A DNA stretch of 64,000 nucleotides from Patescibacteria group bacterium (GCA_038062295.1 JBBTXL010000008.1:1430-65429), one strand, 5' to 3'; counted from the first letter of the stretch, positions 14,812 through 46,472 are shown. Notes: a model not told the origin generated them from the letters alone. Numbers and translations are program-made.

Positions 14812-14935
14812 ATAATCAAAAAGGGATAACCCCGTTGGACACAATCACCCTTGCGAGTTTTTGTAGGCGGAGTTACCCCTCTTTAAATGCAAAAAATCGC
14901 AAATCCCAGTAATTGTGTCCATGTTTATCATACCA

Positions 14936-15888: not shown

Positions 15889-15890
15889 AG

Positions 15891-16217: not shown

Positions 16218-16269
16218 AGTAATATGGTGTTAGTTTATTAAATAAATGCGGTGGCGGGGCTATGCGAGC

Positions 16270-16497: not shown

Positions 16498-16509
16498 ATT
16501 TTTATCATG

Positions 16510-16964: not shown

Positions 16965-17017
16965 ATCATTTTTTTAGTTATTTTATTAATTGCGACCTTG
17001 ATGATTTTTTTAAAAAA

Positions 17018-17053
17018 TAAAAAAGTCATACTAATTACAGTATGACTTTTCTA
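17018..17053 (-). terminator. bidirectional intrinsic terminator (perfect 12-bp stem AAAAGTCATACT/AGTATGACTTTT) downstream of 17097..18035
   Basis: aaaaaataAAAAGTCATACTaattacAGTATGACTTTTctat; A-run on one side and T-run on the other. Confidence 0.5.
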
Positions 17054-17096
17054 TAAAATTTTGTTTGAATATTAGACTAAACCAGACTAAATCGGA

Positions 17097-18035: not shown

Positions 18036-18261
18036 ATTCCCATGTGCCACCTCTATTTTGTATTTTAATAGCACCCCATTCTTCCAGCTTCTCAAGTATT
18101 GCCGCCTTATCTGTGGCTGATGGAGAACTACCAGTGGTGTCAAAAAAACCAAAATCAACCCAATATAAAATTGGGTTGCCTTTTTTGGTATACAGCGACC
18201 TTTCCTTGATTTGTCTTAAAACATACCAGACATTCTGATTAAATTTTTCTTCTGGGGTCAT
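18028..18261 (-). CDS. hypothetical small protein (element)
   Basis: ORF track; translational coupling with downstream gene. Confidence 0.4.
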   Translation of the reverse strand: MTPEEKFNQNVWYVLRQIKERSLYTKKGNPILYWVDFGFFDTTGSSPSATDKAAILEKLEEWGAIKIQNRGGTWEYE

Positions 18262-18438
18262 AGTAATTTATGTTAATTTCATTGTAATTTACCTATATTC
18301 TACCATTTTTCAGCTATTTTTTCAACCTACTAAAACGTTGTGTATTTTTTGCAAATTTTAGTGGTTTATGGTATTTTATAAGCAATAATTAAGCATCGCC
18401 TAACCCTCGTGGTTTTACTACAAGGTATGGCAACAAAC

Positions 18439-18481
18439 ACGGTTCAGGTCATTAAGCTCCTAGTCAGAGCACCTGAACCGT
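18439..18481. promoter_or_regulatory. perfect 11-bp inverted repeat ACGGTTCAGGT...ACCTGAACCGT with 21-nt spacer in divergent intergenic region of the element
   Basis: seen directly; lies between the leftward operon and the rightward 18566 gene. Confidence 0.3.
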
Positions 18482-18565
18482 CATATCCGAAAGGGTATGG
18501 GTGTCGCAAGACATCGCTGGCTGGGAGCTTTGTGTCTATATTCCCACTAGCTTAGAATAATTACT

Positions 18566-21523: not shown

Positions 21524-21526
21524 ACC

Positions 21527-21778
21527 ATGAAAAAACTTATCGCCTCTACCGCATTTCTATTTTTATTCATAGCTCTGTTTTATTTTTCCAACCCGGCAGA
21601 AGCAGCCACAAGAACTAGAGGGTACTACAAACCAAGTACTGGTACTTATGTACAGCCGTATTACCGTTCCTCTTCGAACAGCTCAAGATGGGATAACTAT
21701 TCAACGCGAGGCAATTACAATCCCTACACGGGTAAAAAGGGTTATATCAGTCCTTACAAGAGTTATCGGTTTAGATAA
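21527..21778 (+). CDS. small secreted Tyr-rich protein (element)
   Basis: signal peptide MKKLIASTAFLFLFIALFYFSNPAEA then YYKPSTGTYVQPYYRSSS...NPYTGKKGYISPYKSY. Confidence 0.5.
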   Translation: MKKLIASTAFLFLFIALFYFSNPAEAATRTRGYYKPSTGTYVQPYYRSSSNSSRWDNYSTRGNYNPYTGKKGYISPYKSYRFR

Positions 21779-21780
21779 TT

Positions 21781-22131
21781 ATGATCAACAAACTCAACAA
21801 AGTTTTAATCTTATCATGGGCATTGCTTTTTTTAGCGATGCCTATTTTTGTCTCAGCCCATCGTTCCGGTTGTCATCGTTGGCACTCTTGCCCATCTGAT
21901 ACTGGTTCGTATGTCTGTGGTGATTTAGGGCATCCTTGCACGTACCCAACCTATCCCAAGTCTGGTGGTGTTATTTTGCCAGAGAGTGTTGCAACTTTAC
22001 CACAACAACCTCACAAGAAAACCAGTGAAACAGCAAGACAAAAACGGATCACCGTATTGAAAAAGCAGATTTCGGATTTGAGGTTAAAACTTCAGCAATT
22101 AGAGAGCCAACTCAAAGCGCTTGAACAATAA
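21781..22131 (+). CDS. small secreted Cys/His-rich protein with C-terminal coiled coil (element)
   Basis: signal peptide; HRSGCHRWHSCPSDTGSYVCGDLGHPC; C-terminal heptad-like KKQISDLRLKLQQLESQLKALEQ. Confidence 0.5.
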   Translation: MINKLNKVLILSWALLFLAMPIFVSAHRSGCHRWHSCPSDTGSYVCGDLGHPCTYPTYPKSGGVILPESVATLPQQPHKKTSETARQKRITVLKKQISDLRLKLQQLESQLKALEQ

Positions 22132-22212
22132 ATTAAATTGATGTAACAGATGAGTTCACCCGAGTCAAGATATTACGAGACTTTTAGCGGAGTTAGTTTT
22201 TAATCCAATAAT

Positions 22213-22386
22213 ATGGAAATAATAGGTTTAGGTCTAGTCATATTGGGACTTATTTGGACAGTAATCAGTTTTATTATCAAGGTTTTTGTCTATGCTGTTT
22301 ATTTTTTGCCATTTATTGGGTATAAGATATTAGATTTTTTAAGTTTATGGCCACACATTTGGCCACTTAACGGAGTTAGTTTTTAA
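22213..22386 (+). CDS. 57-aa small membrane protein (not in ORF track, below length cutoff)
   Basis: hand translation MEIIGLGLVILGLIWTVISFIIKVFVYAVYFLPFIGYKILDFLSLWPHIWPLNGVSF; ends inside a duplicated ~35-nt motif. Confidence 0.3.
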   Translation: MEIIGLGLVILGLIWTVISFIIKVFVYAVYFLPFIGYKILDFLSLWPHIWPLNGVSF

Positions 22387-22395
22387 CTTAATTAT

Positions 22396-22716
22396 ATGGG
22401 AAAATTTAAATTATCATTACCCATTACAATTTTATTAGCGAGTATTGTTTTAGGCGGCTTCTACTATGCGAGCGAAGCAAACAAACAAAAGTCTACTGAA
22501 AGACAACAGCGAGACGAACAGGTGGTCACCGAAAAAAACCTTTTCGACTTAAAATGGTGTTTAGCGACTGCAGAGGGTGATAGGAAGGATTTTCTAAGAT
22601 TAAACGGTCCTGATGGGCATATTGATGGCCGATATACTAATAATACAACTCTCATACAACAGGCTGAAAGACAAAAAAAGGAAGATGAGCAAAGGTGTTA
22701 TCAGTTATACAAATAA
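22396..22716 (+). CDS. small secreted protein (element)
   Basis: signal peptide MGKFKLSLPITILLASIVLGGFYYASEA; preceded by the duplicated ~35-nt motif. Confidence 0.45.
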   Translation: MGKFKLSLPITILLASIVLGGFYYASEANKQKSTERQQRDEQVVTEKNLFDLKWCLATAEGDRKDFLRLNGPDGHIDGRYTNNTTLIQQAERQKKEDEQRCYQLYK

Positions 22717-22852
22717 TTTATTTCAAAACCAAAAATGCAACCAGGACCTTGGATAGATGCAAACATCTTCGATCCTGATAGCAACGAATTTATTGATGAG
22801 GGGCTGGATGAAGATGATGCTGTTGAATTTGCTGATGAGCTATAAATAGTGA

Positions 22853-23305
22853 GTGGCAGGGTGGGGTAAAAAGGCGTATAGTGAAGTTATGCAAAATGGG
22901 TTAAAAGATAAATGGGTTGAATTTCGTGAGCAACTTGATGCTTTGGGCTACTTGATAGGGGCTGTATTGGTTGTAGGCGCAATTATTTGGGGTATCTATA
23001 GCTTGTTCGGCTGGGGTGAACGAGAAGGTGTAGTGAAGTTTGACGATTGCAGGCAAATGGTAACTCTGAAACCAGATACTTTCCAAAAATACTTCAAATC
23101 CTTTACTTGTATGTATAGGAGAACCGAAAGTGGGAGGATAATGTCGGGTGAGTGTGTCCATATTGATACTGCGGGTACACTGTTTTCAAGCAGTAATGAA
23201 TGTGATACCGCTTATATCTATGAGAAAGAGCAGGAGGGGAGTTGCACGGACCCCAAATATCCATATCTGGGTTACGATGATATGTGTCACACCAACCTGC
23301 AATGA
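22853..23305 (+). CDS. membrane-anchored Cys-rich hypothetical protein (element)
   Basis: ORF track; TM helix LGYLIGAVLVVGAIIWGIYSLFGW; six Cys in C-terminal half. Confidence 0.45.
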   Translation: MAGWGKKAYSEVMQNGLKDKWVEFREQLDALGYLIGAVLVVGAIIWGIYSLFGWGEREGVVKFDDCRQMVTLKPDTFQKYFKSFTCMYRRTESGRIMSGECVHIDTAGTLFSSSNECDTAYIYEKEQEGSCTDPKYPYLGYDDMCHTNLQ

Positions 23306-23501
23306 TACTTTTGAAACAATGAGTAGTTTGATGGGGGTCAGAAGCTCATCGCAAATGAAGGATATTTGAAATGAAACTCACTTTTGCCTTGTAGGAGAAC
23401 AGTTCTAACTTCATCCAGTGCGCGGAGCATCGAAATAAAAAATGTCCCTTTATGGGGTATTTTTTATTTCTGATATTTTAGGAAGTGGGATTCGAAGGGT
23501 A

Positions 23502-23535
23502 TTTCAAAAACAGAAACTGCTTTCTGTTTTTGAAA
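23502..23535. repeat. perfect 15-bp inverted repeat TTTCAAAAACAGAAA-ctgc-TTTCTGTTTTTGAAA ~70 nt inside the right direct repeat
   Basis: seen directly. Confidence 0.4.
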
Positions 23536-23600
23536 ACCCGGGCTCTGGAGGAGTATATTTTTCTTGTGCATATATGCACGAAAAATATGCGGGGGAAGAG

Positions 23601-23616
23601 GAATCCCACCCCCGGA
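23601..23616 (+). repeat. direct repeat copy 2 (putative attR core)
   Basis: GAATCCCACCCCCGGA identical to tRNA-Asn 3-prime end. Confidence 0.6.
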
Positions 23617-23725
23617 ACGCTTGACAAATAGCACAGAAATGTGCTTTATTTGTTTTAGAAAGTTTTCCGAAAAAGAAAACTGCATTCACAACTAAATAGG
23701 GAAGCGAGGAAAGGAGGGATGAAAA

Positions 23726-24307
23726 GTGAACGCTCTGGTCTTGGCTGGCAGTATACTTGGCATCTTAACGTACATTCCGCTGTGGAAGGGGATTAGGTCG
23801 GGTGAGGTGAACCAAAATCTATTCACCTGGATTCTGTGGGTGGCGGTGGACTTCGTTATCGCCGCGTCAGTCATTACGCAGGGCGGGAACTTTTTACTCC
23901 CGGTTGCCTATACGGTGGGGAGCGCGATAACGGCGTTTTTTATCTTCGCGTCGGAGAGCAGGGCTTCTTGGACATGGATTGAGACGGTGGTTGCGCTGCT
24001 TGTTGTAGCAAGTATGGGTGTGTGGGTTTACTCTGGCAGTAAGCTCGCCACCATCGCGAGCACCACGGCAATGATTATCGCGGGAATACCACAGCTTGTT
24101 GATGCGTGGAAGAAGCCCCGGGAAATGCCGATGCCGGTGTTCGTGAGCTACTTTATTGCCAATAGTCTCTCTGCGGCTGGCGGTAAAAACTGGTCCATTG
24201 AAGAGAGGTTTTTCCCGGTAGCATTGGCTTTTTACTGTGTGGCAATAATTTTCTGTTCGGCTCGCCGATTTTGGTTGAAAAGCGCGGTCGACGGGGTGGT
24301 GCATTAA
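23726..24307 (+). CDS. polytopic membrane protein, function unknown
   Basis: ORF track; ~6 predicted TM helices; GC content host-like. Confidence 0.55.
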   Translation: MNALVLAGSILGILTYIPLWKGIRSGEVNQNLFTWILWVAVDFVIAASVITQGGNFLLPVAYTVGSAITAFFIFASESRASWTWIETVVALLVVASMGVWVYSGSKLATIASTTAMIIAGIPQLVDAWKKPREMPMPVFVSYFIANSLSAAGGKNWSIEERFFPVALAFYCVAIIFCSARRFWLKSAVDGVVH

Positions 24308-35095: not shown

Positions 35096-35692
35096 ATGTT
35101 TGTGCGCGCATCACAGATACCGAAAGACCTTGCCGAACAAAGCGATGAAAAGTTGCTTGCGGCGTCACGCGAAACGCCGGCGGTTTTCTCGGTATTGGTG
35201 AGCCGGTATCAGGAGGCGTTTTTGCGCAAGGGAAGGAGTATCCTCGCGAGGCAGGAAGACGCGGAAGATGCCGTGCAAGAGTCGTTCGTGAAGATCTACA
35301 TCAACGCTCATACCTTTACGCCGCGGGAAGGGGCATCGTTCAAATCATGGGCGTATCGCATTCTTTTAAATGAATGCTTCGCACGGTACCGGCGTATGAA
35401 AACAGAGCGGGAGTTTGCAAGCGGGGTTGACCAGGAGATGCTGGCGTTTCTCCCCGATGAGCGCATGGTGCGCGAACGCACGCAGGCGCTTGACGCCGAC
35501 TATGTACTCTCGCTGTTATCGCGGATCCCGGAGGTGTTCCGGCAGGTGCTGACACTGCATTTTTTAAAAGACAAGTCACAGCGGGATATTGCCCGGGAAC
35601 TCGGTATTTCCGAAGGCGCCGTACGCACGCGGGTGCACCGCGCAAAAGAAGCGCTCCAAAAAGAGCGCGAACGATTGGAATGTATCACATAA
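35096..35692 (+). CDS. ECF-type sigma-70 family RNA polymerase sigma factor
   Basis: region 2-like EDAVQESFVKIY; region 4 HTH RDIARELGISEGAVRTRVHRAKEALQ. Confidence 0.75.
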   Translation: MFVRASQIPKDLAEQSDEKLLAASRETPAVFSVLVSRYQEAFLRKGRSILARQEDAEDAVQESFVKIYINAHTFTPREGASFKSWAYRILLNECFARYRRMKTEREFASGVDQEMLAFLPDERMVRERTQALDADYVLSLLSRIPEVFRQVLTLHFLKDKSQRDIARELGISEGAVRTRVHRAKEALQKERERLECIT

Positions 35693-35696
35693 TATT

Positions 35697-36047
35697 ATGA
35701 CTGAAGAACAATTGCATCGCATCATCATGCGAAGGGTGTATGCTGTATTTTTTCTGCGGGAGCTTGCTTCGTCGTTGTGGGTGAAAGCGGCGGCGCTCGC
35801 GGTGTTGGTTGCCGCAAGCGCACTCGTAGTGTCGGTTGCTGACGTCTTCGCCAATATGCCGGGCGTGAACGAGCCGGCTGCGCTCTACGGCTTTTTCACC
35901 TACGCGTTTTTACAAACCGAGTACGCCGTGCAGGCGCTGGCGCTTGGTATTGCGGTGCTTACCGCCTTCATCGGCAGGGAAGTGGCGGTGCGTGCGGTAC
36001 GGCAGAGCCGGCATATTCCACTCGCGTTTGCCCGCATGCGGCATTAA
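35697..36047 (+). CDS. small membrane protein downstream of ECF sigma (candidate anti-sigma factor)
   Basis: starts 5 nt after sigma stop; MTEEQLHRIIMRRVYAVFFLRELASSLWVKAAALAVLVAASALV TM segments. Confidence 0.45.
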   Translation: MTEEQLHRIIMRRVYAVFFLRELASSLWVKAAALAVLVAASALVVSVADVFANMPGVNEPAALYGFFTYAFLQTEYAVQALALGIAVLTAFIGREVAVRAVRQSRHIPLAFARMRH

Positions 36048-36145
36048 TCTTTTTCAAAGACAGAAAAAAGCCCATCCCGATGATTTTTCGGAATGGGCTT
36101 TTTAGGGTTTTTTTCGTGACGGTTGGCGTTGTGTCAAGACGGGCG

Positions 36146-37183
36146 TCACGGTTTTTTGACAGAAGGAGGAGGTAATCCCGGCATATGTTCAACCAGCGTT
36201 TCCCATATCTCCTTAGTCCCCAATTTGTTGCATGCGGACGTGTATAGCTGGGAAATCCTGCTCTCTGTGACCCCGAGCACTTTCCCGGTTTCTTTCATGG
36301 TGCGCGGCGGACCGGAAAAACCACAGTATAGGTCAAGAACCCGCCGTTCGCTCGGTGAGAGCTTGGGGTGGGTGCGAAGCCGGTGTACTGCCGCTTCGAA
36401 TTCGACGTTCGCCATGTCATCGAAGGCGGTAGTAGTATCAGTAGGAATGAAGCGATACAGGTTCTCTCCCTCTCCGCTTTCCATCTCTTGAAGTTCGTCA
36501 AGAGAAACAGCGGGTTTCCGGATTCTCACAATGGCAAGTACTTCGTAGACCTTGTCAACCGGCATATCGATGCAGGCGGCAATATCCTCAATGGCGGGCT
36601 CTGTTTCGCGTTCGGTCCACAGCAGGCGTTGCGCGCGTTCTATTTTTGCCAATGCTTCGAGGACACTGCGCGGCAACGGCGAGGAACTGCGGATAACGTC
36701 CAGTATGGTGCCCCGAATGCGATACTCCAGATAGGTGGTGAGTGCGGTACCCCGTTCTTTGTCAAAACGGCGCACCGTCTCATTTGCTTCCAGAAAACAC
36801 TCCTGGAGAACATCATTATGGTCAATGGCGGGGTCAAGGATCGCGCGCTGGAGCGTTCGCCTATTGCCTCCGAACACCATCTTTTTCACTAACTGCAGGT
36901 GAGCATCCGTCAATAACCATCCATTGCCGGAAGCGCCGGGTTCGGGCGGCAGTATCTCATGAGAGTTAGTGATTCCGATCAGGTCTTCCACCTCTTGTAT
37001 CGTTTTTAATGCATCATCTTTTTTGCATACGGTACGGAGCTCCCGAAGCAAGTCCTCCCGGGTCCTGCCAGAAAGGTCCGCGACGGTTAAAACGCCGATA
37101 CCCCACAAACGCATGAGGGAGGTATCGGAAAGCCCCAGTGTTTCAATGCTGGCATGCATCTCAACGGCATCTCCTTGTTCCAT
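36146..37183 (-). CDS. sigma-70 family sigma factor (group 3 / FliA-SigF-like) with N-terminal helix-hairpin-helix domain resembling RNAP alpha-CTD
   Basis: regions 2-4 (RRVLDLYCGFSGPPRTMKETGKVLGVTESRISQLYTSACNKL); N-terminal LGLSDTSLMRLWGIGVLTVADL...EDLL. Confidence 0.75.
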   Translation of the reverse strand: MEQGDAVEMHASIETLGLSDTSLMRLWGIGVLTVADLSGRTREDLLRELRTVCKKDDALKTIQEVEDLIGITNSHEILPPEPGASGNGWLLTDAHLQLVKKMVFGGNRRTLQRAILDPAIDHNDVLQECFLEANETVRRFDKERGTALTTYLEYRIRGTILDVIRSSSPLPRSVLEALAKIERAQRLLWTERETEPAIEDIAACIDMPVDKVYEVLAIVRIRKPAVSLDELQEMESGEGENLYRFIPTDTTTAFDDMANVEFEAAVHRLRTHPKLSPSERRVLDLYCGFSGPPRTMKETGKVLGVTESRISQLYTSACNKLGTKEIWETLVEHMPGLPPPSVKKP

Positions 37184-38195: not shown

Positions 38196-39125
38196 TCATA
38201 CTCCTTTTTTCGTCGGCATTTCGCCGTCGAGGATTTGTTGTGCCTTGCGTAGGGTCTTGATGAACAGCCCGACCTGATTGAGGAGCCGTTCCTTATCCTT
38301 TGACTCCCGGAGCGAGGAGAAGTCAAAGTTCGAAATTTTTGTATGAGTCTGCGCAAGAAAAGCCGCCATATGTCTTGTGTTTTTCACACCGTTGTTCGCG
38401 GAGTGCCGCTCTCTGCCGTTGCTTTTGGGGTGCATAAGTTGCTGTGCGCGCCCTTTGATCTCGGAGGGTGTGAGCTTCAATTCCATTGCGCGATGAGCCA
38501 TCGGTATCTGGTGTTCCCGGGGAAGTTTTAATATCTCCGTGGCCTTCCAGAGGTCGAGCGACTTGTTGTTCATGAACGGATGCAGTTCGTCAGGAAGTTT
38601 CAATAAACGGATCCTGCCAACAACAAAAGAAACGCTCTTGCCGACACTGTCAGCAACCTTTTGGTTATTGTTTTTATTTCGCGACAGCATCCGATCTAAG
38701 GCATGTGCTTCTTCCATGATGGTCAGACTCTCGCTCTGCAGGTTTTCAATGAGCGCGAGATCCTCCGCCTGTTCGTCGGTTACGTTGTCAATAAGGGAAG
38801 GTATCCGCGCTAATCCGAGCGTTTTAAATGACCGCCATCGTCGCTCGCCGAATATCAGCTCATACTCACCGGGTTCTTCGAGGAGTTCGCGAACGCTGAT
38901 GGGTTGCCGAAGTCCGTGTGCTTTGATGGACGCCGCCAGCTCTTCCATCCGTTGCTGGTTAAAATAGGTGCGCGGCTGGAAGCGGTTCGGCCGTATCCTG
39001 TTCACCGGAAGCTGGACAATTTGTTCCTTTTTCAGTGCCATATCCCCCTCCTTGGGTGTGTTATGCGGTTGGTAATGTGCAACAGTGAATTCTGTCACGG
39101 TACTATGCGCACATGCGCGTGTCAA
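38196..39125 (-). CDS. ParB-like nuclease / partition-family DNA-binding protein (no parA nearby)
   Basis: ParB N-domain VNRIRPNRFQPRTYFNQQRMEELAASIKAHGLRQPISVREL...LIFGERRWRS; RBS AAGGAGGGGG. Confidence 0.75.
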   Translation of the reverse strand: MTRACAHSTVTEFTVAHYQPHNTPKEGDMALKKEQIVQLPVNRIRPNRFQPRTYFNQQRMEELAASIKAHGLRQPISVRELLEEPGEYELIFGERRWRSFKTLGLARIPSLIDNVTDEQAEDLALIENLQSESLTIMEEAHALDRMLSRNKNNNQKVADSVGKSVSFVVGRIRLLKLPDELHPFMNNKSLDLWKATEILKLPREHQIPMAHRAMELKLTPSEIKGRAQQLMHPKSNGRERHSANNGVKNTRHMAAFLAQTHTKISNFDFSSLRESKDKERLLNQVGLFIKTLRKAQQILDGEMPTKKGV

Positions 39126-39606: not shown

Positions 39607-40905
39607 ATGAAAAAAGTTCTCTTATCTCTCGGTGCGGTGGCGATGGTGCTGGTTGCGCTCCCCATGTTCTCCGCATTCGAGGCGCATGTTATTAACGTAA
39701 CGGCAAAGATAGAAAATGCTTTGTCGGTTCCGGTGAGCGAAATAGATTTCGGCACCGTGTTCCCGCAGGAAAAGCTGGACAAGCAGTTCGACGTTTCCCT
39801 TTCCCAATCGTTCAAGGATGAGGATAGAGTGGACGACGTGGAATATTACATTCGGCAGAAGCCCAAGTGCTGGGACGGCAACGAAACAACGCCGACCTTC
39901 GGGCGTGTGACGGAAGACGCACAGGGGAACTTTGTATGCGTGGATGAAGGGTTCACCATGCTCCCCATTTTATGCCCGTATCTTTCAAAGCATGAATTGA
40001 CGACCGACGGTACGCAACAGGAAAACGACACGGGTATCAACGCGTTCCACGGCCTACCTGGCAGTTGGACGCTCGCAACCACGCTCGCCACACAGGTAAC
40101 AGGGCGGCTTGCAAAGTCCGTGCAGGACTTTACGGACACCTGGAATGTAGATCTGCGCGTGCCATGCTTTGGTGGCCACTGTGCGCAAGACTGGGATGAT
40201 TTCGTACAGAACTCAAACCCAGCAGACTTAGAAATTGACCCGTCCGCATACATCCAGCCACAGGAAAACGAGCATAAATTGTTCGGCTGTGATCTGTGGG
40301 TAGAGGTGTATCGCATCAGTCTTGCAGGCGGCCCGCCCATCGGGTGCGAGGACGAGCTGGATTTGATGCTCGTGCTTGACCGCTCGGGGAGTATTGGGGA
40401 TACGAATATGGGCGTATTGCAAACTGCCGCAAAAGCATTTGTGGACGCACTAGGACTTGGTACGCCGGGTCCGCACGCGGGCATGGTGAGTTTTGCAAGC
40501 GGCGCCTCGCTGGATGTGCATCTGACGGATGATGCTGTGGCGGTAAAAGCAGCGATCGATTTGTTGGTTTCTTCCGGCCTTACGGCGCTTGGCGACGGCA
40601 TCAATACCGCAAAGACAGAGCTAGACAACCCCGGCGACGGCCACGATCGTCTGGATGCGGGTTCTCCCGACTACATGGTTATTATCACCGACGGCGCGCC
40701 CAACACAGGTGCGGATTCCGCAACCGCAGCGGCTGCGGCAAAAGCGGCCGGTATCACTATCTATGTGGTAGGGGTAGGCACGACGGGTGGCACGGAAACA
40801 TTCTTACGCGATACTATCGCAACCTCGCCCGCACACTACTTCAGCATCGCAAATTACGATGATCTGCAGGCGCTCCTAAGCGGATTGGTAAACTGTCCCG
40901 CATAA
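39607..40905 (+). CDS. secreted protein: conserved post-signal-peptide domain (FEAHVINVTAKIEN...) fused to C-terminal vWA/MIDAS domain; cluster member 1
   Basis: signal peptide MKKVLLSLGAVAMVLVALPMFSA; conserved Cys framework; vWA motifs DLMLVLDRSGSIG, GLTALGDGI, VIITDGAPN. Confidence 0.85.
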   Translation: MKKVLLSLGAVAMVLVALPMFSAFEAHVINVTAKIENALSVPVSEIDFGTVFPQEKLDKQFDVSLSQSFKDEDRVDDVEYYIRQKPKCWDGNETTPTFGRVTEDAQGNFVCVDEGFTMLPILCPYLSKHELTTDGTQQENDTGINAFHGLPGSWTLATTLATQVTGRLAKSVQDFTDTWNVDLRVPCFGGHCAQDWDDFVQNSNPADLEIDPSAYIQPQENEHKLFGCDLWVEVYRISLAGGPPIGCEDELDLMLVLDRSGSIGDTNMGVLQTAAKAFVDALGLGTPGPHAGMVSFASGASLDVHLTDDAVAVKAAIDLLVSSGLTALGDGINTAKTELDNPGDGHDRLDAGSPDYMVIITDGAPNTGADSATAAAAAKAAGITIYVVGVGTTGGTETFLRDTIATSPAHYFSIANYDDLQALLSGLVNCPA

Positions 40906-40908
40906 CGG

Positions 40909-42255
40909 ATGAAAAGAACATTCACCACAATTCTTTCGCTGGGCGCCATGCTCGTCATGGTGCCCATGCTTGCCGCCTACGAGGCGCATGTGTTGAATGT
41001 TATCGCGCAAATTGAGAATGGGGGAGACATCATCGTCACGCCGGGCGACCCGGTGGATTTCGGCACGGTGTTCCCCCAGGAGAAACTGGACAAACAGTTT
41101 GAGATCGCACTCTCGCAGACGTTCATCAACGATCCACAATACGACCTCTTGGAATATTCCGTCACGCAGGAACCCAAATGCTGGAACGGCAACGAGCAAG
41201 CTCCCGTGTTCGGGGAAGCGCAAATCGTGAACAACCAGTTCGTCTGTATTGACCAGGGTTTTACCTTCCTTCCTATTCTGTGTCCGTATCTCTCAAAACA
41301 TGAGCTCACGGGCGACGCGACGGGCGATACGGAGCCGGGCGAAACCCCGGGCGACCCCGTGGATGAAAACGACGGGCCGGGCATCCTCGCGTTTCATGGC
41401 GTGATAGATGTGAATGCTTGGAGCCCGCTCGTTGCTTCCTCCACCATGGAAGTCGGTGCGCTTAAAAAAACAGCCGAAGACCTTGCCGATACCTGGAATA
41501 TTGATCTCAAAGTACCGTGTTTCACGGGCCACTGCGCGCAGGACTGGGAGGACTATGTCAAAGGCATCAACCCGCAGGCAAATCCGGACGACTACATCCA
41601 GCCCCTGGAAAACGAGCACAAGCTGTTTGGCTGTAACATCCGCATCTCGGTGACCGGTAAGCCCTCTACGGTTGGTTGTCAGGGTAAGGTTGACCTCATG
41701 CTCGTACTTGACCGCTCGGGGAGTATTGACTTCACGGAGCTTGGACAACTCAAAACTGCGGCAAATGCTTTTGTGGATGCGCTTGCGCCGTCTGCAAGTA
41801 GTGTACATATTGGCCAATCAAGCTTTGCAACAACCGGCTCGCTTGATTTGCATCTTACCGACAACGCAACATCAACACATGCGGCAATTAACGCACTTAT
41901 TGCGGTCGGGCAGACCAACCTGAAATCCGGTATAGACTTTGCAAAAACGGAACTGAACAACCCCGGCGACGGGCATGACCGCACGGATGGTGACTCGCCC
42001 GACAAGATGGTTATCATCACCGACGGTGCGCCGAACAGACCGATTCCGGCAATTACCGCAGACGATGTAGCAGCAGCATCAGCAGATGCTGCGCGCGCTG
42101 CTGGTATTGAAATTTTTGCACTTGGCGTTGGGGTTTCTGCATCAACTGAAACATTTTTGAAAACCGAAATTGCCGATGATGCCGCGCATTACTATTCCGT
42201 GCTGAACTACGCGGATCTGCAAGCCGCGCTGGAACTGCTTGCCGAATGTGACTGA
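40909..42255 (+). CDS. secreted protein, same N-domain plus vWA domain; cluster member 2
   Basis: AAYEAHVLNVIAQIEN...; DLMLVLDRSGSID, VIITDGAPN; 3-nt spacing from upstream gene. Confidence 0.85.
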   Translation: MKRTFTTILSLGAMLVMVPMLAAYEAHVLNVIAQIENGGDIIVTPGDPVDFGTVFPQEKLDKQFEIALSQTFINDPQYDLLEYSVTQEPKCWNGNEQAPVFGEAQIVNNQFVCIDQGFTFLPILCPYLSKHELTGDATGDTEPGETPGDPVDENDGPGILAFHGVIDVNAWSPLVASSTMEVGALKKTAEDLADTWNIDLKVPCFTGHCAQDWEDYVKGINPQANPDDYIQPLENEHKLFGCNIRISVTGKPSTVGCQGKVDLMLVLDRSGSIDFTELGQLKTAANAFVDALAPSASSVHIGQSSFATTGSLDLHLTDNATSTHAAINALIAVGQTNLKSGIDFAKTELNNPGDGHDRTDGDSPDKMVIITDGAPNRPIPAITADDVAAASADAARAAGIEIFALGVGVSASTETFLKTEIADDAAHYYSVLNYADLQAALELLAECD

Positions 42256-42417
42256 TTGCACACACTCCCATCTTTTGGCGCAAGCGAAAAGATGGGAGTG
42301 GCCACAATCCACCCTTCGCCTCTTTCGGGGCCGCTCGACGCCTAAAGAAGTGAGGGGATGATACGCAATGGCCAGGTCGATCATCCTTAATTAGCATTAA
42401 ACAAAGATTATACGCAT

Positions 42418-43332
42418 ATGAAAAAAGTTTTACTTTCACTGGGAGCTGTTGCCTTCGTATTGGTCGCGCTCCCGATGTTCTCGGCATTTGAGGCGCATGT
42501 TATCAACGTGGTCGCAAAGATCGAGAATGCGCTTTCGGTGGATACGCGACCGATCAACTTCGGCACGGTATTCCCGCAGGAAGAACTTGAACGGCCGTTG
42601 GCGGTTCAACTTTCGCAGTCGTTTGTGGATGAGGAAAATGCCGATGATGTTCGGTACATTATTCGCCAGAAGCCGAAGTGCGGTGTAACAACCGACAATG
42701 GAACTGTATTGGTCGGCCCAACCTGGACCGGTCACGTTGTACCAACACTGGATGACCCGCAAACCACAGATGTTGATGAAAGCAAGGGTGGCACAGCTTA
42801 CACGATTGACTGTGAAAAGGATAAGCCTGCTAACTTGGAGGAAGCAACCTATGGCTTACTGCCGATGCTTTGTCAGTATATCTCGAAGCACCCGGTAGCG
42901 GCTTGCGCTGATGGGTTGGATAATGATAACGATCAGGCAATCGACGGACAGGATGTGGATTGTGCAGGCGCGACAGATGACAACGAAGGATTGCCAGGGT
43001 CTCAACCAGAAGGCGATGATGGAAGTCTGAATTCGTTCCATCAGCCGTTTTCGGTGAGTAATTCGACGGTGCAATGGAATGATGTTCATGGTCTTCTTGC
43101 AAAGTCGCTGAGCGACCGTGCAGATCTGTGGACGATTGACCTTGCGGTGCCATGCTTTGGCGGATACTGCGCACAGGATTGGGCAGACTTTGTGCACGGC
43201 ATCAATCCGGATGCAGACCCGAATGCATACACCCAGTCAATTGACAACGAACACAAGATTTTCGGTTGCAATCTCTGGATTGAAGTGACCGAAGTGAGTC
43301 GTGTTGATACAAACCCGACTGACAACCAATAG
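42418..43332 (+). CDS. secreted protein, same N-domain only (no vWA) with acidic insertion; cluster member 3
   Basis: MKKVLLSLGAVAFVLVALPMFSAFEAHVINVVAKIEN; conserved Cys framework ...VPCFGGYCAQDW...HKIFGCNLWIEV. Confidence 0.8.
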   Translation: MKKVLLSLGAVAFVLVALPMFSAFEAHVINVVAKIENALSVDTRPINFGTVFPQEELERPLAVQLSQSFVDEENADDVRYIIRQKPKCGVTTDNGTVLVGPTWTGHVVPTLDDPQTTDVDESKGGTAYTIDCEKDKPANLEEATYGLLPMLCQYISKHPVAACADGLDNDNDQAIDGQDVDCAGATDDNEGLPGSQPEGDDGSLNSFHQPFSVSNSTVQWNDVHGLLAKSLSDRADLWTIDLAVPCFGGYCAQDWADFVHGINPDADPNAYTQSIDNEHKIFGCNLWIEVTEVSRVDTNPTDNQ

Positions 43333-43420
43333 TTTGAGCTAATCTCTGAATCTCTCCGGCGGTTGCTTGTGACAACGGCCGGAGGATTGAGTGATTATTA
43401 ATTCATAAGAGGGAAAACTT

Positions 43421-43909
43421 ATGGAAAACCAATTGTACGAAGTTCAGCAAGAAACCGCTCCGCAAACGCCCGAAAAAAAGGGCTGGTGGGGAGCGCTCAA
43501 AGTGTGGGAAAAGATAGTCACCATCGTGCTTGCGCTTGTGGTGCTGTTTGCGTTTTATATCGCGCTTGACGCGAATAAATACCAAGCGACGGTGCATGTG
43601 ATAGAAGGCGAGGGGAAAGTGGGTATCAACCCCACCACCGAGCGCCTGGACTTTGGCGACCTTTCGCGTGGGACTTCCGCCGTGCGCCGCGTAACGGTGA
43701 CAAACGGCACGGCAATGCCGATGTATGTGATGGTGTGGAAAACGGGCAAAGTAAGCGAGCTGATGGACGAGAATAAAAATTACTTCACGCTCGCGCCGGG
43801 GAACGAGGAACGCCTTGAATTCACCATTTACATGCCTGCGTCGGCACAGATCGGTGCGACGCTGGATGGCCGTGTGTATTTGCTAAAAATCCCTACGTTC
43901 GGACTGTAA
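43421..43909 (+). CDS. small membrane-anchored member of the same family (N-terminal cytoplasmic tail plus TM, then ...ATVHVIEGEG... domain); cluster member 4
   Basis: LDFGDLSRGTSAVRRVTVTNGT parallels IDFGTVFPQEKLDKQFDVSLSQ of the larger members. Confidence 0.65.
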   Translation: MENQLYEVQQETAPQTPEKKGWWGALKVWEKIVTIVLALVVLFAFYIALDANKYQATVHVIEGEGKVGINPTTERLDFGDLSRGTSAVRRVTVTNGTAMPMYVMVWKTGKVSELMDENKNYFTLAPGNEERLEFTIYMPASAQIGATLDGRVYLLKIPTFGL

Positions 43910-43920
43910 CGCCCAACGCT

Positions 43921-44469
43921 ATGCTTCCCAACCCGCTTATCATTCCTTCGGGACCGCCGCAACGGAGCGCACCGGAACTGCAACAGGCGTCGGAGCGGGA
44001 ACCCGCGCCGGAGGGAAAGAAAAAAAGACCCTTCTGGAGAAAGGCGGTGAATGTCGTTGCATATATAGTCATTATCGGGGGTATTACATTCGGCTTGCCC
44101 AAAGCGCTTGCGTGGGCGCTGGATACGCCCTACCCCATGGCGACCATCACCTCGGGCTCCATGTGGCCTGCGCTCAAAGAGGGCGATTTGGTGTTCATAC
44201 AAGGCATCAAAAGCAAAAGCGACATGAGTATCGGCGATGTGGTGGTGTATCGCAACAAGGAGAATGGCACATTCGTCATTCACCGTGTGGTCGCGATGGG
44301 CGAGAAAACATTTACCACCAAGGGCGACGCCAACTTCTCGAAAGACGACCCGGTGCGGTATGAGGACGCGGTGGGCAAGGCCTACGAACTGGGGGGGTAC
44401 TACGCCCGCATTCCGTACTTGGGCATTATTACCGTGTATGCCAGCAAGCAACTAAACCATCAGCCATGA
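43921..44469 (+). CDS. SipW/Sec11-type (archaeal/ER-type) signal peptidase I
   Basis: N-terminal TM; SGSMWP (Ser box), VIHRVV (His box), TKGDAN (GDNN-like box); ~180 aa with no bacterial LepB Lys box. Confidence 0.75.
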   Translation: MLPNPLIIPSGPPQRSAPELQQASEREPAPEGKKKRPFWRKAVNVVAYIVIIGGITFGLPKALAWALDTPYPMATITSGSMWPALKEGDLVFIQGIKSKSDMSIGDVVVYRNKENGTFVIHRVVAMGEKTFTTKGDANFSKDDPVRYEDAVGKAYELGGYYARIPYLGIITVYASKQLNHQP

Positions 44470-45479
44470 AATTGTTTCCCGTCATTGTTTTTTTCGCACT
44501 TGCGTTCGCGCTCGTGAACTCCGGAATATTTCTTGGAGCGTTTGAAGCGCATGTGCTGAACGTGACGGCCGTGATAGACGACAACCCGCCGCTGTGCGAT
44601 GCGCGCTCGCTGGGGTATTGGAAGAACCACGAGGGATGTTTTAAGGGGAAAGGGGAGAGTATCTGGACGGACGAGATACACCAGGTAACTACGGAATTTG
44701 CGGGGATATTTTACGATATTACGGGAGAGCAAATTTGCAAGGCGGTGTGGATCTCTTCTTGCCCGTCGGGCAACGACCCGGATGCGCGAAGATGCAAGGC
44801 GCGTGCGATGGCGCTTGCCGTGGAGTTGAACCTTGTGTCGGGGCGTTTGCAATTGGACGCTCTGCTTGCGGGAGCGGACGACGGTTCCTCGGCCTTTGAC
44901 CATCTGGGGCTGACGGGGGCCTCCACCATCCGGCAGGCGATGATGATGATAGAAATTATCATCGGCACGCCGTCCTCCACGAGCCAACAGCTCAAAGACG
45001 CGGCGTATGTCGCCGAGCGCATATACACGTTCTATGAGTCGGAAAATCCGGATGCGCCGCGCTGTGTGTATGTCCCGCCGCCGCCCAAAGACGATTGCGA
45101 CAAAGACGGGCATCATAGCGGGAACGATTTTGGGACCGGCACGGAGCAGTTTCTTATCACTACCGGCGGCAGCCACGACGACGGGAAAGAATGCGATGAT
45201 GATACAAAAAACGATGACGACAACCATCACGACTGGTGGGACTTGCTGTCATATCCGGGTGACAATGATTTCAACAGCCAGGACAACCATGAAACCGGCG
45301 ACACAGACAGGGGAGAGCGCGGCGAGCGCGGTTCACACGACAACAACGGGACAACAACGGATGTATTCAATGCCACAACAACCGCCGATGTGTTGAACGG
45401 AACTTCAACGATAGATACCCTTGGTGGTACCGGTGACGATGACGGCCGCAAAGAACGCGGAGACAGGGAAGACCGCTGA
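44466..45479 (+). CDS. secreted protein with the same post-signal motif (FEAHVLNVTAVID) and a long Asp/His/Gly-rich acidic C-terminal tail; cluster member 5
   Basis: ATGA overlap with sipW-like gene; signal peptide; C-terminal DDGKECDDDTKNDDDNHHDWW...GDDDGRKERGDREDR. Confidence 0.7.
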   Translation: MKLFPVIVFFALAFALVNSGIFLGAFEAHVLNVTAVIDDNPPLCDARSLGYWKNHEGCFKGKGESIWTDEIHQVTTEFAGIFYDITGEQICKAVWISSCPSGNDPDARRCKARAMALAVELNLVSGRLQLDALLAGADDGSSAFDHLGLTGASTIRQAMMMIEIIIGTPSSTSQQLKDAAYVAERIYTFYESENPDAPRCVYVPPPPKDDCDKDGHHSGNDFGTGTEQFLITTGGSHDDGKECDDDTKNDDDNHHDWWDLLSYPGDNDFNSQDNHETGDTDRGERGERGSHDNNGTTTDVFNATTTADVLNGTSTIDTLGGTGDDDGRKERGDREDR

Positions 45480-45491
45480 CGTTAGCGCACG

Positions 45492-46472
45492 CTAGATATG
45501 CTTTTGCTGCTCCATTTCGCGGAGCAGTTTTTGCATTGCATCCATCTGGTCGGGGTCGTGGATGGAAATTGCGCACGCGGACGGGTTGAGTTTTTTCAGT
45601 ATGGTGAGTCTCTTTTTTTGTTCTTTGGGTACCAGGAGATCGCTCTTACTCAAGAAAAGGTATTCTTTTTTTTGAAGGAGCTTTGGGTGATATGCGCCAA
45701 GCTCCGTGCGGATGGTTTTGTAATCGCGCGCGGGGTTGTCCGACTCTGCCGATACGAAGTGAAACAGGGTTTTGGTGCGTTCAATATGCCGCAGAAATTT
45801 TACGCCCAAACCTTTGCCCACCGATGCGCCTTCAATAATGCCCGGAATGTCGGCGAGCACCAGGTCGCCATGTACGCCTAAATTCGGTTCCAGCGTGGTG
45901 AAAGGGTAGTTGGCTACCTTGCTTCTGGCTTTGGTGAGCTCGTTGAGCATGCTCGATTTGCCGGCGTTGGGGAGGCCGATAAGTCCGATGTCGGCGATGA
46001 GTTTGAGTTCCAGGCGCAGGGTGAAGCGCTCGCCTTCCCGCCCGCGTTCACATTGTTTGGGTGAGGTGTTGATGGACGAACGGAACAAAAAATTTCCTTT
46101 TCCGCCGCCGCCGCCCCGCGCCATGGGGATGCGCTCGCCGATGGCGGTAATTTCCGCACGGTCGCTGGTGGTGAGACTATGGATAACGGTGCCAACGGGA
46201 ATTTTGATAATAAGGTCTGCGCCGTCGGTGCCGTCGTTGCACTGGATGCGGCCGTGCTTGCCGTTCTCGGCTTTCAGAACTTTTTTAAACCGGAACTGCG
46301 AAAGGGCGGACAGGTTGGAAATACCTTCCATGTACACACTGCCGCCTTTGCCGCCGGTGCCGCCGGTGGGGCCGAGTGCCAGCAGGTTCTTTTGAAACGA
46401 TACTTTGCCGTCTCCGCCGTTGCCCGCGATTATTTCTATAGTGACATCGTCTATTAACATGGAGCGGAGCAT
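45492..46472 (-). CDS. obg: GTPase Obg
   Basis: Gly-rich Obg fold GNGGDGKVSF...GGTGGKGGSV; G1 GLIGLPNAGKSS; G2 FTTLEPNLGV. Confidence 0.9.
   Translation of the reverse strand: MLRSMLIDDVTIEIIAGNGGDGKVSFQKNLLALGPTGGTGGKGGSVYMEGISNLSALSQFRFKKVLKAENGKHGRIQCNDGTDGADLIIKIPVGTVIHSLTTSDRAEITAIGERIPMARGGGGGKGNFLFRSSINTSPKQCERGREGERFTLRLELKLIADIGLIGLPNAGKSSMLNELTKARSKVANYPFTTLEPNLGVHGDLVLADIPGIIEGASVGKGLGVKFLRHIERTKTLFHFVSAESDNPARDYKTIRTELGAYHPKLLQKKEYLFLSKSDLLVPKEQKKRLTILKKLNPSACAISIHDPDQMDAMQKLLREMEQQKHI

What the first reader, a model, noticed from the sequence alone, without database searches (positions are those of the whole stretch)
39664..44570. Conserved motif FEAHV(I/L)NV(T/I)A(K/Q/V)I(E/D)N immediately after the signal peptide in five proteins
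The motif occurs in four proteins directly after the signal peptide: SAFEAHVINVTAKIEN (39607 gene), AAYEAHVLNVIAQIEN (40909), SAFEAHVINVVAKIEN (42418) and GAFEAHVLNVTAVIDD (44466). The membrane-anchored 43421 gene has a weaker version, ANKYQATVHVIEGEG. The alternating hydrophobic pattern suggests an N-terminal beta-strand. It could be the recognition and cleavage site of the cluster's dedicated signal peptidase, or a donor strand for subunit polymerisation.
Basis: seen in the sequence. Interest (0 to 1): 0.6.

Follow-up and report, generated by a model that had tools for sequence, protein, structure and literature searches.

The report
Cleave-and-dock tag on Patescibacteria surface proteins
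Four secreted proteins in one operon of an uncultured ultra-small (Patescibacteria) bacterium carry the same 13-15-residue tag right after their signal peptide; the tag is a portable module that always travels with a dedicated archaeal-type signal peptidase and a membrane-anchored Ig-like protein, and it most likely lets adhesin-like proteins be cut and then joined on the cell surface, in the manner of the Bacillus TasA/TapA/SipW biofilm fibre system.

Summary
A[FY]EAHV[IL]NV.A.I[ED] occurs exactly four times in the six-frame translation, each time directly after a signal peptide (g1 39607, g2 40909, g3 42418, g6 44466). The g4 "weak copy" is a separate motif conserved in its own family (LDANKYxAxVxVIEG). 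The tag is not merely the first strand of a common domain. Across 75 Patescibacteria loci it precedes at least 9 unrelated mature architectures, and about 12 paralogs of the g1-g3 domain lack it. Gene order is nearly fixed: 1-4 tagged "N-domain" proteins (often with VWA), then g4 (TM anchor plus PapD/ASH-like Ig domain), then g5 (Ser-His, archaeal-type signal peptidase), then one tagged variable adhesin-like protein. The cleavage box [LM]-F-[AS]-A-F-E resembles the LepB-refractory TasA site TWA|AFND. AlphaFold leaves the tag unpaired in g3 but builds the g4 counterpart as an integral β-strand. Best reading (about 0.55): a peptidase-coupled tag whose freed N-terminal strand docks into Ig-like domains by strand complementation. 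No TasA homology, no TIGR04088 match and no literature hit were found. Strand insertion and the cleavage site remain untested. I class it as a new variant of a known kind.

The parts
39607..40905 (+). g1: tagged protein, 432 aa. Signal peptide (39607-39672), tag AFEAHVINVTAKIEN (39673-39717), cysteine-rich 'N-domain' with an Ig-like core, and a C-terminal VWA domain (40360-40875, MIDAS DRSGS).
40909..42255 (+). g2: paralog of g1, 448 aa. Signal peptide, tag AYEAHVLNVIAQIEN (40975-41019), N-domain, VWA domain (41692-42225).
42418..43332 (+). g3: tagged N-domain-only protein, 304 aa. Tag AFEAHVINVVAKIEN (42484-42528). Carries an acidic double-disulfide repeat insert (residues 160-185). In the AF2 model (pLDDT 83.8) the tag is an unpaired coil and the core is a PapD/ASH/MSP-like sandwich.
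43421..43909 (+). g4: membrane-anchored Ig-like protein, 162 aa. TM helix residues 28-50 (43502-43570), family-specific motif LDANKYQATVHVIEG (43565-43609), then a PapD/ASH-like β-sandwich. The residue before the motif is V/M/T/A/S across the family, so it is probably a signal anchor that is not cleaved.
43921..44469 (+). g5: archaeal/ER-type signal peptidase I, 182 aa. SGSMWP (44152-44169, Ser nucleophile), IHRV (44278-44289, His general base), KGDAN (44320-44334). Starts 11 nt after g4 and overlaps g6 by 4 nt.
44466..45479 (+). g6: tagged variable protein, 337 aa. Signal peptide, tag AFEAHVLNVTAVIDD (44538-44582), then an unrelated Cys-rich domain (C..RSLGYWKNHEGC...) and an acidic low-complexity tail. 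It shares only the signal peptide and tag with g1-g3.
45506..45528 (+). Terminator-like hairpin just after the g6 stop codon; probable operon end. The cluster is flanked by ParB (38196-39125, minus strand) and Obg (45492-46472, minus strand).
   Evidence: consensus match only

Best explanation
The motif is a portable 'cleave-and-dock' tag. It comprises the end of a Sec signal peptide (P-[LM]-F-[AS]-A) plus the first roughly 12-15 residues of the mature protein (FEAHV[IV]NVTAxIE).

Proposed steps:
1. Shown: tagged proteins are encoded beside a dedicated Ser-His (archaeal/ER-type) signal peptidase (g5) and a membrane-anchored PapD/ASH-like Ig protein (g4).
2. Inferred: after Sec export, g5 cuts within F-[AS]-A-F, either before the invariant Ala as in TasA (TWA|AFND) or after it. 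This site has aromatic residues around the scissile bond, a feature reported to hinder the housekeeping LepB-type peptidase.
3. Inferred: the freed β-prone N-terminal peptide then inserts as an extra strand (donor-strand complementation or β-augmentation) into an Ig-like domain of a partner. The partner would be the N-domain of g1-g3-type subunits and/or g4.
4. Inferred: this joins VWA-, LTD-, SdrD/SpaA- and CBM-bearing adhesin-like cargo into a membrane-tethered fibre or complex.

g4 carries a related, uncleavable version of the strand built into its own sandwich. It would act as the TapA-like anchor, nucleator or chaperone.
For: Modularity:
- 198 tag carriers were found in 75 loci plus the window. 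155 have the N-domain; 43 fall into 8 other unrelated classes and none of these has an N-domain or g4-like domain.
- In the non-N carriers, conservation stops at +12.
- About 12 N-domain paralogs lack FEAHVINV and have an ordinary VSA| signal peptide (L080).

Synteny:
- g4 plus g5 follow the N-carriers in 51 of 52 loci with enough sequence.
- A strict-motif variable carrier follows g5 in 38 of 51 loci, and most of the remainder have relaxed tags.
- The pattern was confirmed starting from g4 homologs, without using the motif: a tagged variable protein follows g5 in all four loci examined, and tagged N-domain genes lie upstream in two of the three distinct contexts.

Peptidase:
- g5 scores 95 bits against TIGR02228 (cut-off 51.85).
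- SGSMWP, IHRV and GDAN are conserved in 57 family members.
- One locus also has a P-type LepB 3 kb away, so g5 is an extra enzyme there.

Cleavage box:
- Position -1 is A in 194 and G in 4 of 198 carriers; -3 is F in 127; -5 is P in 119; +1 is F or Y.
- The pattern parallels TasA TWA|AFND, where aromatic P2 and P2' residues block LepB (PMC10269814).

Conservation:
- The tag shows 0.88 mean pairwise identity against 0.46 for the rest of the N-domain.
- Conservation is at the protein level, since synonymous sites differ.

Structure:
- In the g3 model the tag is an unpaired coil (pLDDT 63-81) outside a confident core.
- In the g4 model the counterpart KYQATVHVIE is a β-strand (residues 52-61, pLDDT above 90) within the sandwich.
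- Both cores hit MSP/ASH/PapD-like folds, including chaperone-usher chaperones.

Precedent:
- TasA, TapA and SipW use N-terminal donor strands. TapA has an Ig fold, and tapA overlaps sipW (PMC10151520).
- The sipW-bsaA-bsaB-bsaC operon includes a VWA protein (PMC11580942).
- AbpA also uses a donor strand (PMC9245690).
Against: - There is no direct evidence of strand insertion.
- The best fold matches (MSP, ASH, PapD-like) are complete Ig-like folds, not known strand acceptors.
- The g4 fold looks complete on its own.
- The invariant polar residues (E, H, N, E) are unusual for a purely hydrophobic donor strand and may point to another role, such as metal binding, catalysis or modification.
- The cleavage site is inferred from residue statistics only.
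- The locus sets were seeded partly with the motif itself, which inflates apparent invariance.
- Whether most of these genomes also have a LepB is unknown; only one example was seen.
Confidence: 0.55

Rival explanations
1. Recognition-only signal. The motif is just the extended specificity determinant that routes these precursors to the cluster's ER-type peptidase g5, the Patescibacteria counterpart of the 'SipW-dependent-type signal peptide'. It has no later role in assembly.
For: The motif abuts the predicted cut site, with an invariant small residue at -1. It is strictly co-located with g5. It resembles the LepB-refractory TasA site. g4, whose equivalent position has V/M/T, would simply escape cleavage.
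Against: Signal peptidases read roughly P3-P2'(P4'). Here near-invariance extends to +9 (A in 198 of 198), +11 (I in 190 of 198) and +12. The motif does not match the TIGR04088 model although TasA does. In TasA the same post-cleavage residues are also the donor strand, so the two roles are not exclusive.
Confidence: 0.2
2. Modification or lock site. The conserved polar residues mark a post-translational event. This could be N-glycosylation at the N-V-T sequon, as on the AbpA donor strand, or an intermolecular Asn-Lys isopeptide 'exchange-and-lock', as in C. perfringens BsaA. That event, rather than non-covalent strand docking, would be the main reason for the conservation.
For: N at +6 and T/S at +8 form N-x-T/S in 193 of 198 carriers. 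The AbpA donor strand is N-glycosylated. BsaA locks its donor strand through N35-K74 catalysed by E56. The N-domain has invariant Lys, Glu and Asp residues.
Against: g2 (NVI) and g3 (NVV) in this very window lack the sequon. No STT3/AglB/PglB-type WWDxG protein was found in about 1 Mb of loci plus the window. Relaxed tags replace N with D, G or S. No structural model places a Lys or Glu next to the Asn.
Confidence: 0.1
3. Ordinary first β-strand of a shared domain. The motif is conserved only because g1-g3 are paralogs.
For: g1-g3 are paralogs (54-57% identity). In g4 the equivalent segment is modelled as an integral strand of the Ig sandwich.
Against: g6 and 42 other carriers in 8 classes have no N-domain or g4-like domain anywhere. 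About 12 N-domain proteins lack the FEAHVINV part. The motif is unpaired in the g3 model. It is far more conserved than the domain itself.
Confidence: 0.03

Closest known systems
Bacillus subtilis tapA-sipW-tasA (and B. cereus sipW-calY) biofilm fibre system
   Same: A dedicated ER/archaeal-type Ser-His signal peptidase is encoded between its substrates. Substrates share a conserved stretch spanning the cleavage site (TWA|AFND in TasA against [LM]F[AS]-A-F-E here). In TasA and TapA the freed N-terminal residues are the donor strand. TapA is an Ig-fold accessory protein that associates with the membrane, and its gene abuts sipW, as g4 abuts g5.
   Different: The N-domain and g4 are not TasA/camelysin homologs: no PF12389 or NF046066 hit, Foldseek E about 1 to 8aur, and a PapD/ASH/MSP-like rather than jelly-roll core. 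The tag fails TIGR04088. The tag is attached to many unrelated cargo domains. g4 keeps a TM anchor. The host is a Patescibacterium.
Clostridium perfringens sipW-bsaA-bsaB-bsaC
   Same: A SipW-type peptidase sits with fibre subunits and a VWA-domain protein in one operon. An N-terminal disordered segment with a conserved Asn inserts into the next subunit (PMC11580942).
   Different: BsaA and BsaB are TasA-like. The covalent N-E-K lock is shown there and is only speculative here. In the Patescibacteria system the VWA domain is fused to the tagged N-domain subunit itself.
NCBIfam TIGR04088 'SipW-dependent-type signal peptide' class
   Same: The concept is the same: a variant signal peptide plus early mature motif that co-occurs with an archaeal-type signal peptidase.
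   Different: The model does not recognise the tag even at E<=10, while the TasA control scores 38 bits. The conserved part here is longer and has a different sequence.
Archaeal TasA-like filaments (AbpA/AbpB bundling pili, CanA/CanX cannulae)
   Different: The fold similarity is weaker than to PapD/ASH domains. No dedicated peptidase lies in the archaeal loci, and there is no shared sequence motif.
Chaperone-usher pili (PapD/FimC chaperones, Nte donor strands)
   Different: There is no usher, no outer membrane and no two-domain periplasmic chaperone. g4 is a single-domain TM-anchored protein. No sequence-level membership was found.

Membership tests
SipW-dependent-type signal peptide (NCBIfam TIGR04088 cognate_SipW) | Match to the 34-position HMM at or above 19 bits | tested here: not met
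   The g1 and g6 N-termini gave no hit at E<=10. The B. subtilis TasA positive control scored 38 bits.
SipW-dependent-type signal peptide (NCBIfam TIGR04088 cognate_SipW) | Genomic co-occurrence with an archaeal/ER-type signal peptidase I | tested here: met
   g5 lies in the same operon. The pairing holds in 51 of 52 evaluable loci and in 4 of 4 loci reached independently through g4.
SipW-dependent-type signal peptide (NCBIfam TIGR04088 cognate_SipW) | Actual cleavage by the cognate peptidase at the motif | not testable with these tools
   Only residue statistics are available (-1 is A/G in 198 of 198 carriers). This needs N-terminal sequencing or MS with and without g5.
TasA/camelysin (Pfam PF12389 Peptidase_M73; NCBIfam NF046066) | Sequence match to the family models | tested here: not met
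   No hit for g1-g4 or g6 at E<=1. None of 85 N-domain family members hits it at E<=0.1. A PDB profile search found nothing.
TasA/camelysin (Pfam PF12389 Peptidase_M73; NCBIfam NF046066) | TasA-like jelly-roll fold | tested here: not met
TasA/camelysin (Pfam PF12389 Peptidase_M73; NCBIfam NF046066) | N-terminal donor strand inserted into the neighbouring subunit | not testable with these tools
   Only monomer prediction was available. The tag is unpaired in the g3 model.
Archaeal/ER-type signal peptidase I (TIGR02228 sigpep_I_arch), for g5 | HMM score at or above the cut-off of 51.85 bits | tested here: met
   95 bits, E 4e-27.
Archaeal/ER-type signal peptidase I (TIGR02228 sigpep_I_arch), for g5 | Ser-His (not Ser-Lys) catalytic residues in boxes B and D | tested here: met
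   SGSMWP and IHRV are conserved in 57 family members. By contrast, the LepB found in L072 has IKRV and GDNRLRSSDSR.
SipW proper (NCBIfam NF046067 equivalog), for g5 | Equivalog score at or above 190 bits | tested here: not met
   54.7 bits. g5 is SipW-like in type but not an ortholog.
Chaperone-usher pilus system | Usher protein and two-domain periplasmic PapD-family chaperone | tested here: not met
   No usher or PapD_N/PapD_C Pfam hit in g1-g6. g4 is a single Ig domain with a TM anchor. The only link is fold-level similarity.
Sortase-dependent Gram-positive pili | C-terminal LPxTG sorting signal and a sortase gene | tested here: not met
   No LPxTG in g1-g6. No sortase domain in the cluster.
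von Willebrand factor A domain (PF00092), C-termini of g1 and g2 | Pfam match above the gathering score, and a MIDAS DxSxS motif | tested here: met
   85.5 and 66 bits against a cut-off of 23.8. DRSGS is present in both.

The most novel reading that the evidence does not exclude
The operon may build a previously undescribed surface fibre of Parcubacteria-type Patescibacteria, assembled by donor-strand exchange that is gated by a dedicated signal peptidase and that has built-in polarity.

- Tip or initiator: the single variable, donor-only tagged protein (g6, or LTD/SdrD/CBM proteins in other genomes).
- Shaft: the tagged N-domain paralogs (donor plus acceptor, some with VWA heads).
- Base: g4, with its uncleavable pseudo-tag and TM helix, would terminate and anchor the fibre.
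- In some genomes tag-less N-domain paralogs would serve as acceptor-only end caps.
- The invariant Asn, Glu and His might add a covalent (isopeptide) or metal lock.

Such a structure could be the host-attachment organelle of these episymbionts. The tag and acceptor pair could also be a natural, portable peptide-docking module.
Probability: 0.3. Interest if true: 0.85.

Novelty: new variant of a known kind. Interest (0 to 1): 0.62.

Why it matters
Patescibacteria (CPR) make up a large share of bacterial diversity and are thought to live attached to host cells. Apart from type IV pili, their attachment machinery is essentially unknown. This operon is widespread: more than 1,100 N-domain proteins at 90% clustering, about 300 g4 homologs and 373 tag-bearing 50% clusters. 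Judging by the record titles, it occurs in lineages including Ryan-, Wildermuth-, Giovannoni-, Doudna-, Uhr-, Azam- and Vogelbacteria. It combines VWA, LTD, SdrD/SpaA and CBM adhesin modules with a private signal peptidase.

If the tag works as proposed, three things follow:
- The TasA/SipW principle (a dedicated ER-type peptidase that unmasks a docking strand) extends to a non-TasA fold and to a new phylum.
- A simple sequence handle (AFEAHVINVTA) becomes available to enumerate the displayed surface proteome of these organisms from metagenomes.
- A concrete, testable peptide-domain pair is defined, together with a tryptic reporter peptide, (A)FEAHVINVTAK, for existing metaproteomes.

Tried and rejected
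- TIGR04088 membership: rejected, with a working positive control.
- Recent duplication or gene conversion as the cause of identity: rejected, because synonymous sites differ.
- Motif as part of the N-domain: rejected by a motif-less HMM and by the absence of the N-domain in 43 carriers.
- Homology of g4 to the N-domain by hhalign: weak and inconclusive (E 0.008, probability 5%), so I do not claim it.
- N-glycosylation machinery: no STT3/PglB/AglB-type WWDxG protein in about 1 Mb. The three Wzy_C proteins at 2-9 kb are 30 kb away and of a different type.
- Sortase/LPxTG: absent.
- Promoter and terminator scan: counts were not above shuffled expectation, and only the hairpin after g6 is worth noting.
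- Rfam and tRNA scans: nothing in the cluster.
- Literature: the string 'FEAHV' and combinations of CPR, Parcubacteria, SipW and TasA returned no paper describing this system.
- g6 domain: no Pfam, NCBIfam or PDB relative.

Full report
**1. The observation**

The region 39.6-45.5 kb holds six co-directional genes:

| Gene | Coordinates | Length |
|---|---|---|
| g1 | 39607-40905 | 432 aa |
| g2 | 40909-42255 | 448 aa |
| g3 | 42418-43332 | 304 aa |
| g4 | 43421-43909 | 162 aa |
| g5 | 43921-44469 | 182 aa |
| g6 | 44466-45479 | 337 aa |

A six-frame scan finds [FY]EAHV[IL]NV exactly four times in 64 kb, in g1, g2, g3 and g6, each directly after an N-terminal hydrophobic segment (coordinates checked). 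g1-g3 are paralogs (54-57% identity), but g6 aligns with them only over the signal peptide and motif. The motif codons differ at synonymous positions among the four genes, so the identity is maintained at the protein level and not by recent gene conversion.

The "weaker version" in g4 (LDANKYQATVHVIEG) is real, but it is a different motif that is strongly conserved in its own family: [VTAMS]-LDANKY-x-A-x-V-x-V-I-E-G-E-G. It aligns to the tag only weakly, though collinearly (hhalign E 0.008, probability 5%).

**2. What the genes are**

- g1 and g2 end in VWA domains (85.5 and 66 bits) with a DRSGS MIDAS motif.
- The roughly 250-residue region after the tag in g1-g3 (the "N-domain") matches no Pfam or NCBIfam model, and none of 85 family members matches one either.
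- g5 is an archaeal/ER-type signal peptidase I. It scores 95 bits against TIGR02228 (cut-off 51.85) but only 54.7 bits against the SipW equivalog (cut-off 190). The Ser box SGSMWP, the His box IHRV and GDAN are conserved in 57 relatives.
- g4 has a TM helix and weak ASH and choice-of-anchor-D signals. Fifty of 100 family members hit ASH weakly.
- g6 has no known domain.
- The flanks are housekeeping genes on the opposite strand: ParB at 38196-39125 and Obg at 45492-46472. A terminator-like hairpin follows g6.
- The window is 100% identical to hypothetical proteins AAB581_00620, 00625 and 00635 of a Patescibacteria MAG.

**3. Comparative evidence**

Their C-terminal fusions include VWA, SpaA_2, PA14, LTD, an ice-binding-like domain (PF11999) and a long unannotated C-terminal region. 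All 120 best hits carry (F/L)(A/S)AFEAHV(I/V)NVTAxIENAL at residue about 24. The g6 family (49 proteins) keeps the same tag in front of a completely different domain.
- *Carriers.* A scan of GTDB species genomes gave 75 loci whose record titles name Patescibacteria lineages or, in a few cases, only 'bacterium' or 'Gammaproteobacteria'. In these plus the window I found 198 tag carriers. Of these, 155 have the N-domain. The other 43 fall into 8 unrelated classes: g6-type 19, a related C..RS.G[FY]WKNH type 9, a CHB_HEX/SdrD/LTD type 7, and others. Their Pfam content is LTD, SdrD_B, SpaA, CBM_4_9, CHB_HEX_C_1 and DUF4215, which are adhesin-like modules. None of the 43 contains an N-domain or a g4-like domain anywhere.
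- *N-domain without the tag.* An N-domain HMM built without the motif finds 180 ORFs. Of these, 152 have the strict tag, about 5 have a relaxed tag, and about 12 have no FEAHVINV at all. The tag-less ones have an ordinary signal peptide followed by xHVxIDxNLSV (a further example is L080 6743-7879). So both the tag and the N-domain occur without each other.
- *Extent of the module.* In the non-N carriers conservation ends at +12, which defines the module as A-FEAHV(I/V)NVTAxI(E).
- *Rarity.* A 30-column motif profile searched against 1.84 billion representatives found 373 hits at E<=0.001, and all of the best 150 are N-terminal.

**4. Synteny**

The order is [1-4 tagged N-domain genes], then g4, then g5, then [one tagged variable gene].

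- Of 52 loci with at least 2.5 kb downstream of the last N-carrier, 51 have g4 and g5.
- Of 51 loci with room after g5, 38 have a strict-tag non-N carrier immediately downstream. Most of the other 13 have relaxed tags (FEVHVVDV, FESHIVNV, AEAHVVSV, FEARMIGV, YEAHVIGV).
- Some loci were seeded with the motif. As a check I started from g4 homologs found without it: all four loci examined (three distinct contexts) have the peptidase next to g4, disrupted in one assembly of the same context, and a tagged variable protein after it, and two of the three contexts have tagged N-domain genes upstream.
- One locus (L072) also encodes a classical Ser-Lys LepB (IKRV, GDNRLRSSDSR) 3 kb away, so g5 is an additional, cluster-specific enzyme at least there.

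**5. The cleavage box**

Relative to F(0), the residue frequencies among 198 carriers are as follows:

| Position | Residues |
|---|---|
| -1 | A 194, G 4 |
| -2 | A 104, S 74 |
| -3 | F 127, L 35, M 14 |
| -5 | P 119 |

This is a normal c-region with a helix breaker. Two registers are possible.
- A|FEAH, where P1 is always small.
- [AS]|AFEAH, which copies the experimentally known TasA site TWA|AFND (aromatic P2, Ala P1', aromatic P2').

For TasA, aromatic residues at P2 and P2' make the site refractory to LepB, and this is the rationale given for a dedicated ER-type SipW (PMC10269814). In g4 the corresponding residue is V, M, T, A or S (or K in the hhalign register), and the h-region is longer with no Pro. 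g4 is therefore most likely an uncleaved signal anchor. This is an inference.

**6. Structure**

- *g3.* AF2 on an 85-sequence alignment gives pLDDT 83.8 and pTM 0.76. Residues 23-38 (the tag) have no DSSP strand and lower confidence (63-81), while the core is above 90.
- *g4.* AF2 on 100 sequences gives pLDDT 87.1. It shows a TM helix at residues 28-50 followed directly by β-strand 52-61 (KYQATVHVIE, pLDDT above 90) that belongs to the sandwich.

The accessory protein therefore has the tag-like segment built in as a strand, whereas the tag of a carrier is left free in the monomer. This is what one expects if the tag pairs in trans, but it is not proof.

**7. Mechanism**

Shown:
- a portable N-terminal tag;
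- strict linkage to a Ser-His signal peptidase and to a TM-anchored PapD/ASH-like protein with a related, probably uncleavable segment;
- adhesin-like cargo;
- conservation of the tag (0.88 pairwise identity) well above that of the adjoining domain (0.46) (with the ascertainment caveat).

Inferred:
- g5 cleaves at the F-[AS]-A-F box.
- The new N-terminus docks as a β-strand into an Ig-like acceptor (N-domain and/or g4).
- Near-invariance is explained by one peptide having to fit a peptidase and several partner proteins.

The gene counts per locus are several donor-plus-acceptor subunits, one donor-only variable protein, one anchored g4, and sometimes an acceptor-only N-domain paralog. These fit a polar fibre with tip, shaft and base. 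A simpler model, in which every tagged protein is hung on g4 as a receptor, is equally allowed.

Precedents:
- TasA and TapA donor strands, with TapA as an Ig-fold strand-donating 'chaperone' whose gene overlaps sipW.
- The sipW-bsaA-bsaB-bsaC(VWA) operon with an Asn-Lys lock on the donor strand.
- AbpA, whose donor strand is glycosylated at N-x-S/T.

The tag contains N-V-T in 193 of 198 carriers, but g2 and g3 here lack it, and no oligosaccharyltransferase signature was found in about 1 Mb.

**8. Comparison with known systems and novelty**

Functionally the closest analogues are the SipW-dependent systems (TasA/TapA, CalY, BsaA-C). Membership fails at each sequence or fold test:
- The tag is not TIGR04088 (with positive control).
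- The N-domain is not TasA/camelysin.
- g5 is of the archaeal type but is not the SipW equivalog.
- There is no usher and no sortase.

No paper in the searchable library mentions the motif or such a system in CPR. I therefore class it as a new variant of a known kind: the same logic, with a different tag, fold and phylum, and with far more cargo modularity.

**9. Limits**

- There are no experimental N-termini.
- The locus sets were partly seeded by the motif.
- Taxon labels of several TPA MAGs ('Saccharibacteria', 'Gammaproteobacteria') are submitter labels that I could not verify.
- Only one LepB co-occurrence was seen.

Noticed in passing
window 2093-8739 (+): Three tandem large membrane proteins (808, 685 and 716 aa), each with a Wzy_C / O-antigen-ligase-like domain, two of them with C-terminal TPR repeats. 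They may be surface glycan or O-glycosylation enzymes. They lie 30 kb from the cluster and no link to it was shown.
   Followed up: no
window 13153-24000: tRNA-Asn (13153-13225) abuts a large serine recombinase gene (13186-14844, minus strand). This is followed by a low-GC stretch (0.36-0.41 against about 0.54 elsewhere). It looks like an integrated mobile element at the tRNA.
   Followed up: no
window 18397-18515 (+): A full-length LOOT RNA (Rfam RF03000, 73.6 bits) lies inside the low-GC island, immediately upstream of a 985-aa protein with a trypsin-like peptidase domain (18566-21523).
   Followed up: no
tag positions +6 to +8 (e.g. window 39691-39699; 44556-44564): The tag contains an N-x-T/S sequon (N-V-T) in 193 of 198 carriers, including g1 and g6, but g2 (NVI) and g3 (NVV) lack it. 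No STT3-type enzyme was seen nearby.
   Followed up: partly
L002 8957-10063; L022 16507-17610; L024 10355-12310; L080 6743-7879 and others: About 12 paralogs of the N-domain lack the FEAHVINV tag and have an ordinary signal peptide (...VSA|xHVxIDxNLSV...). They sit downstream of the CHB_HEX/SdrD/LTD-type variable carrier. They could be acceptor-only subunits. None is present in this window.
   Followed up: partly
window 44583-44640 (g6 residues 40-58) and the g6/C2 families: Directly after the tag, g6-type and 'C2'-type carriers share a Cys-flanked motif, C-x(2-5)-[AR]S-x-G-[YF]-W-[KR]-N-H-[ED]. It has several more invariant cysteines and no known relative.
   Followed up: partly
window 42895-42972 (g3 residues 160-185): g3 carries an insert matching the NCBIfam 'acidic double-disulfide repeat' (24 bits, below the cut-off of 41). 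It is absent from nearly all homologs and has low confidence in the model.
   Followed up: no
window 35096-37183: An ECF-type sigma factor (35096-35692) is followed by a small membrane-protein ORF (35589-36047, possibly an anti-sigma factor). A divergent sigma-70-like gene (36146-37183, minus strand) lies 2.5-4.5 kb upstream of the cluster. No regulatory link was tested.
   Followed up: no
L030 12846-13214; L045 2994-3374: In two loci a small ORF of about 125 aa is inserted between g5 and the variable carrier. From memory it resembles the four-helix-bundle '23S rRNA intervening sequence' protein family. Not checked against a library.
   Followed up: no
variable carriers in L001-L075 (e.g. L002 6210-8960, L066 13451-15511): The tagged proteins encoded after the peptidase usually have a long (40-125 aa), basic cytoplasmic extension before the hydrophobic segment. 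The N-domain carriers instead have a short MKK n-region: the median motif start is 49-96 against 24. g6 of this window is an exception with a short n-region.
   Followed up: no
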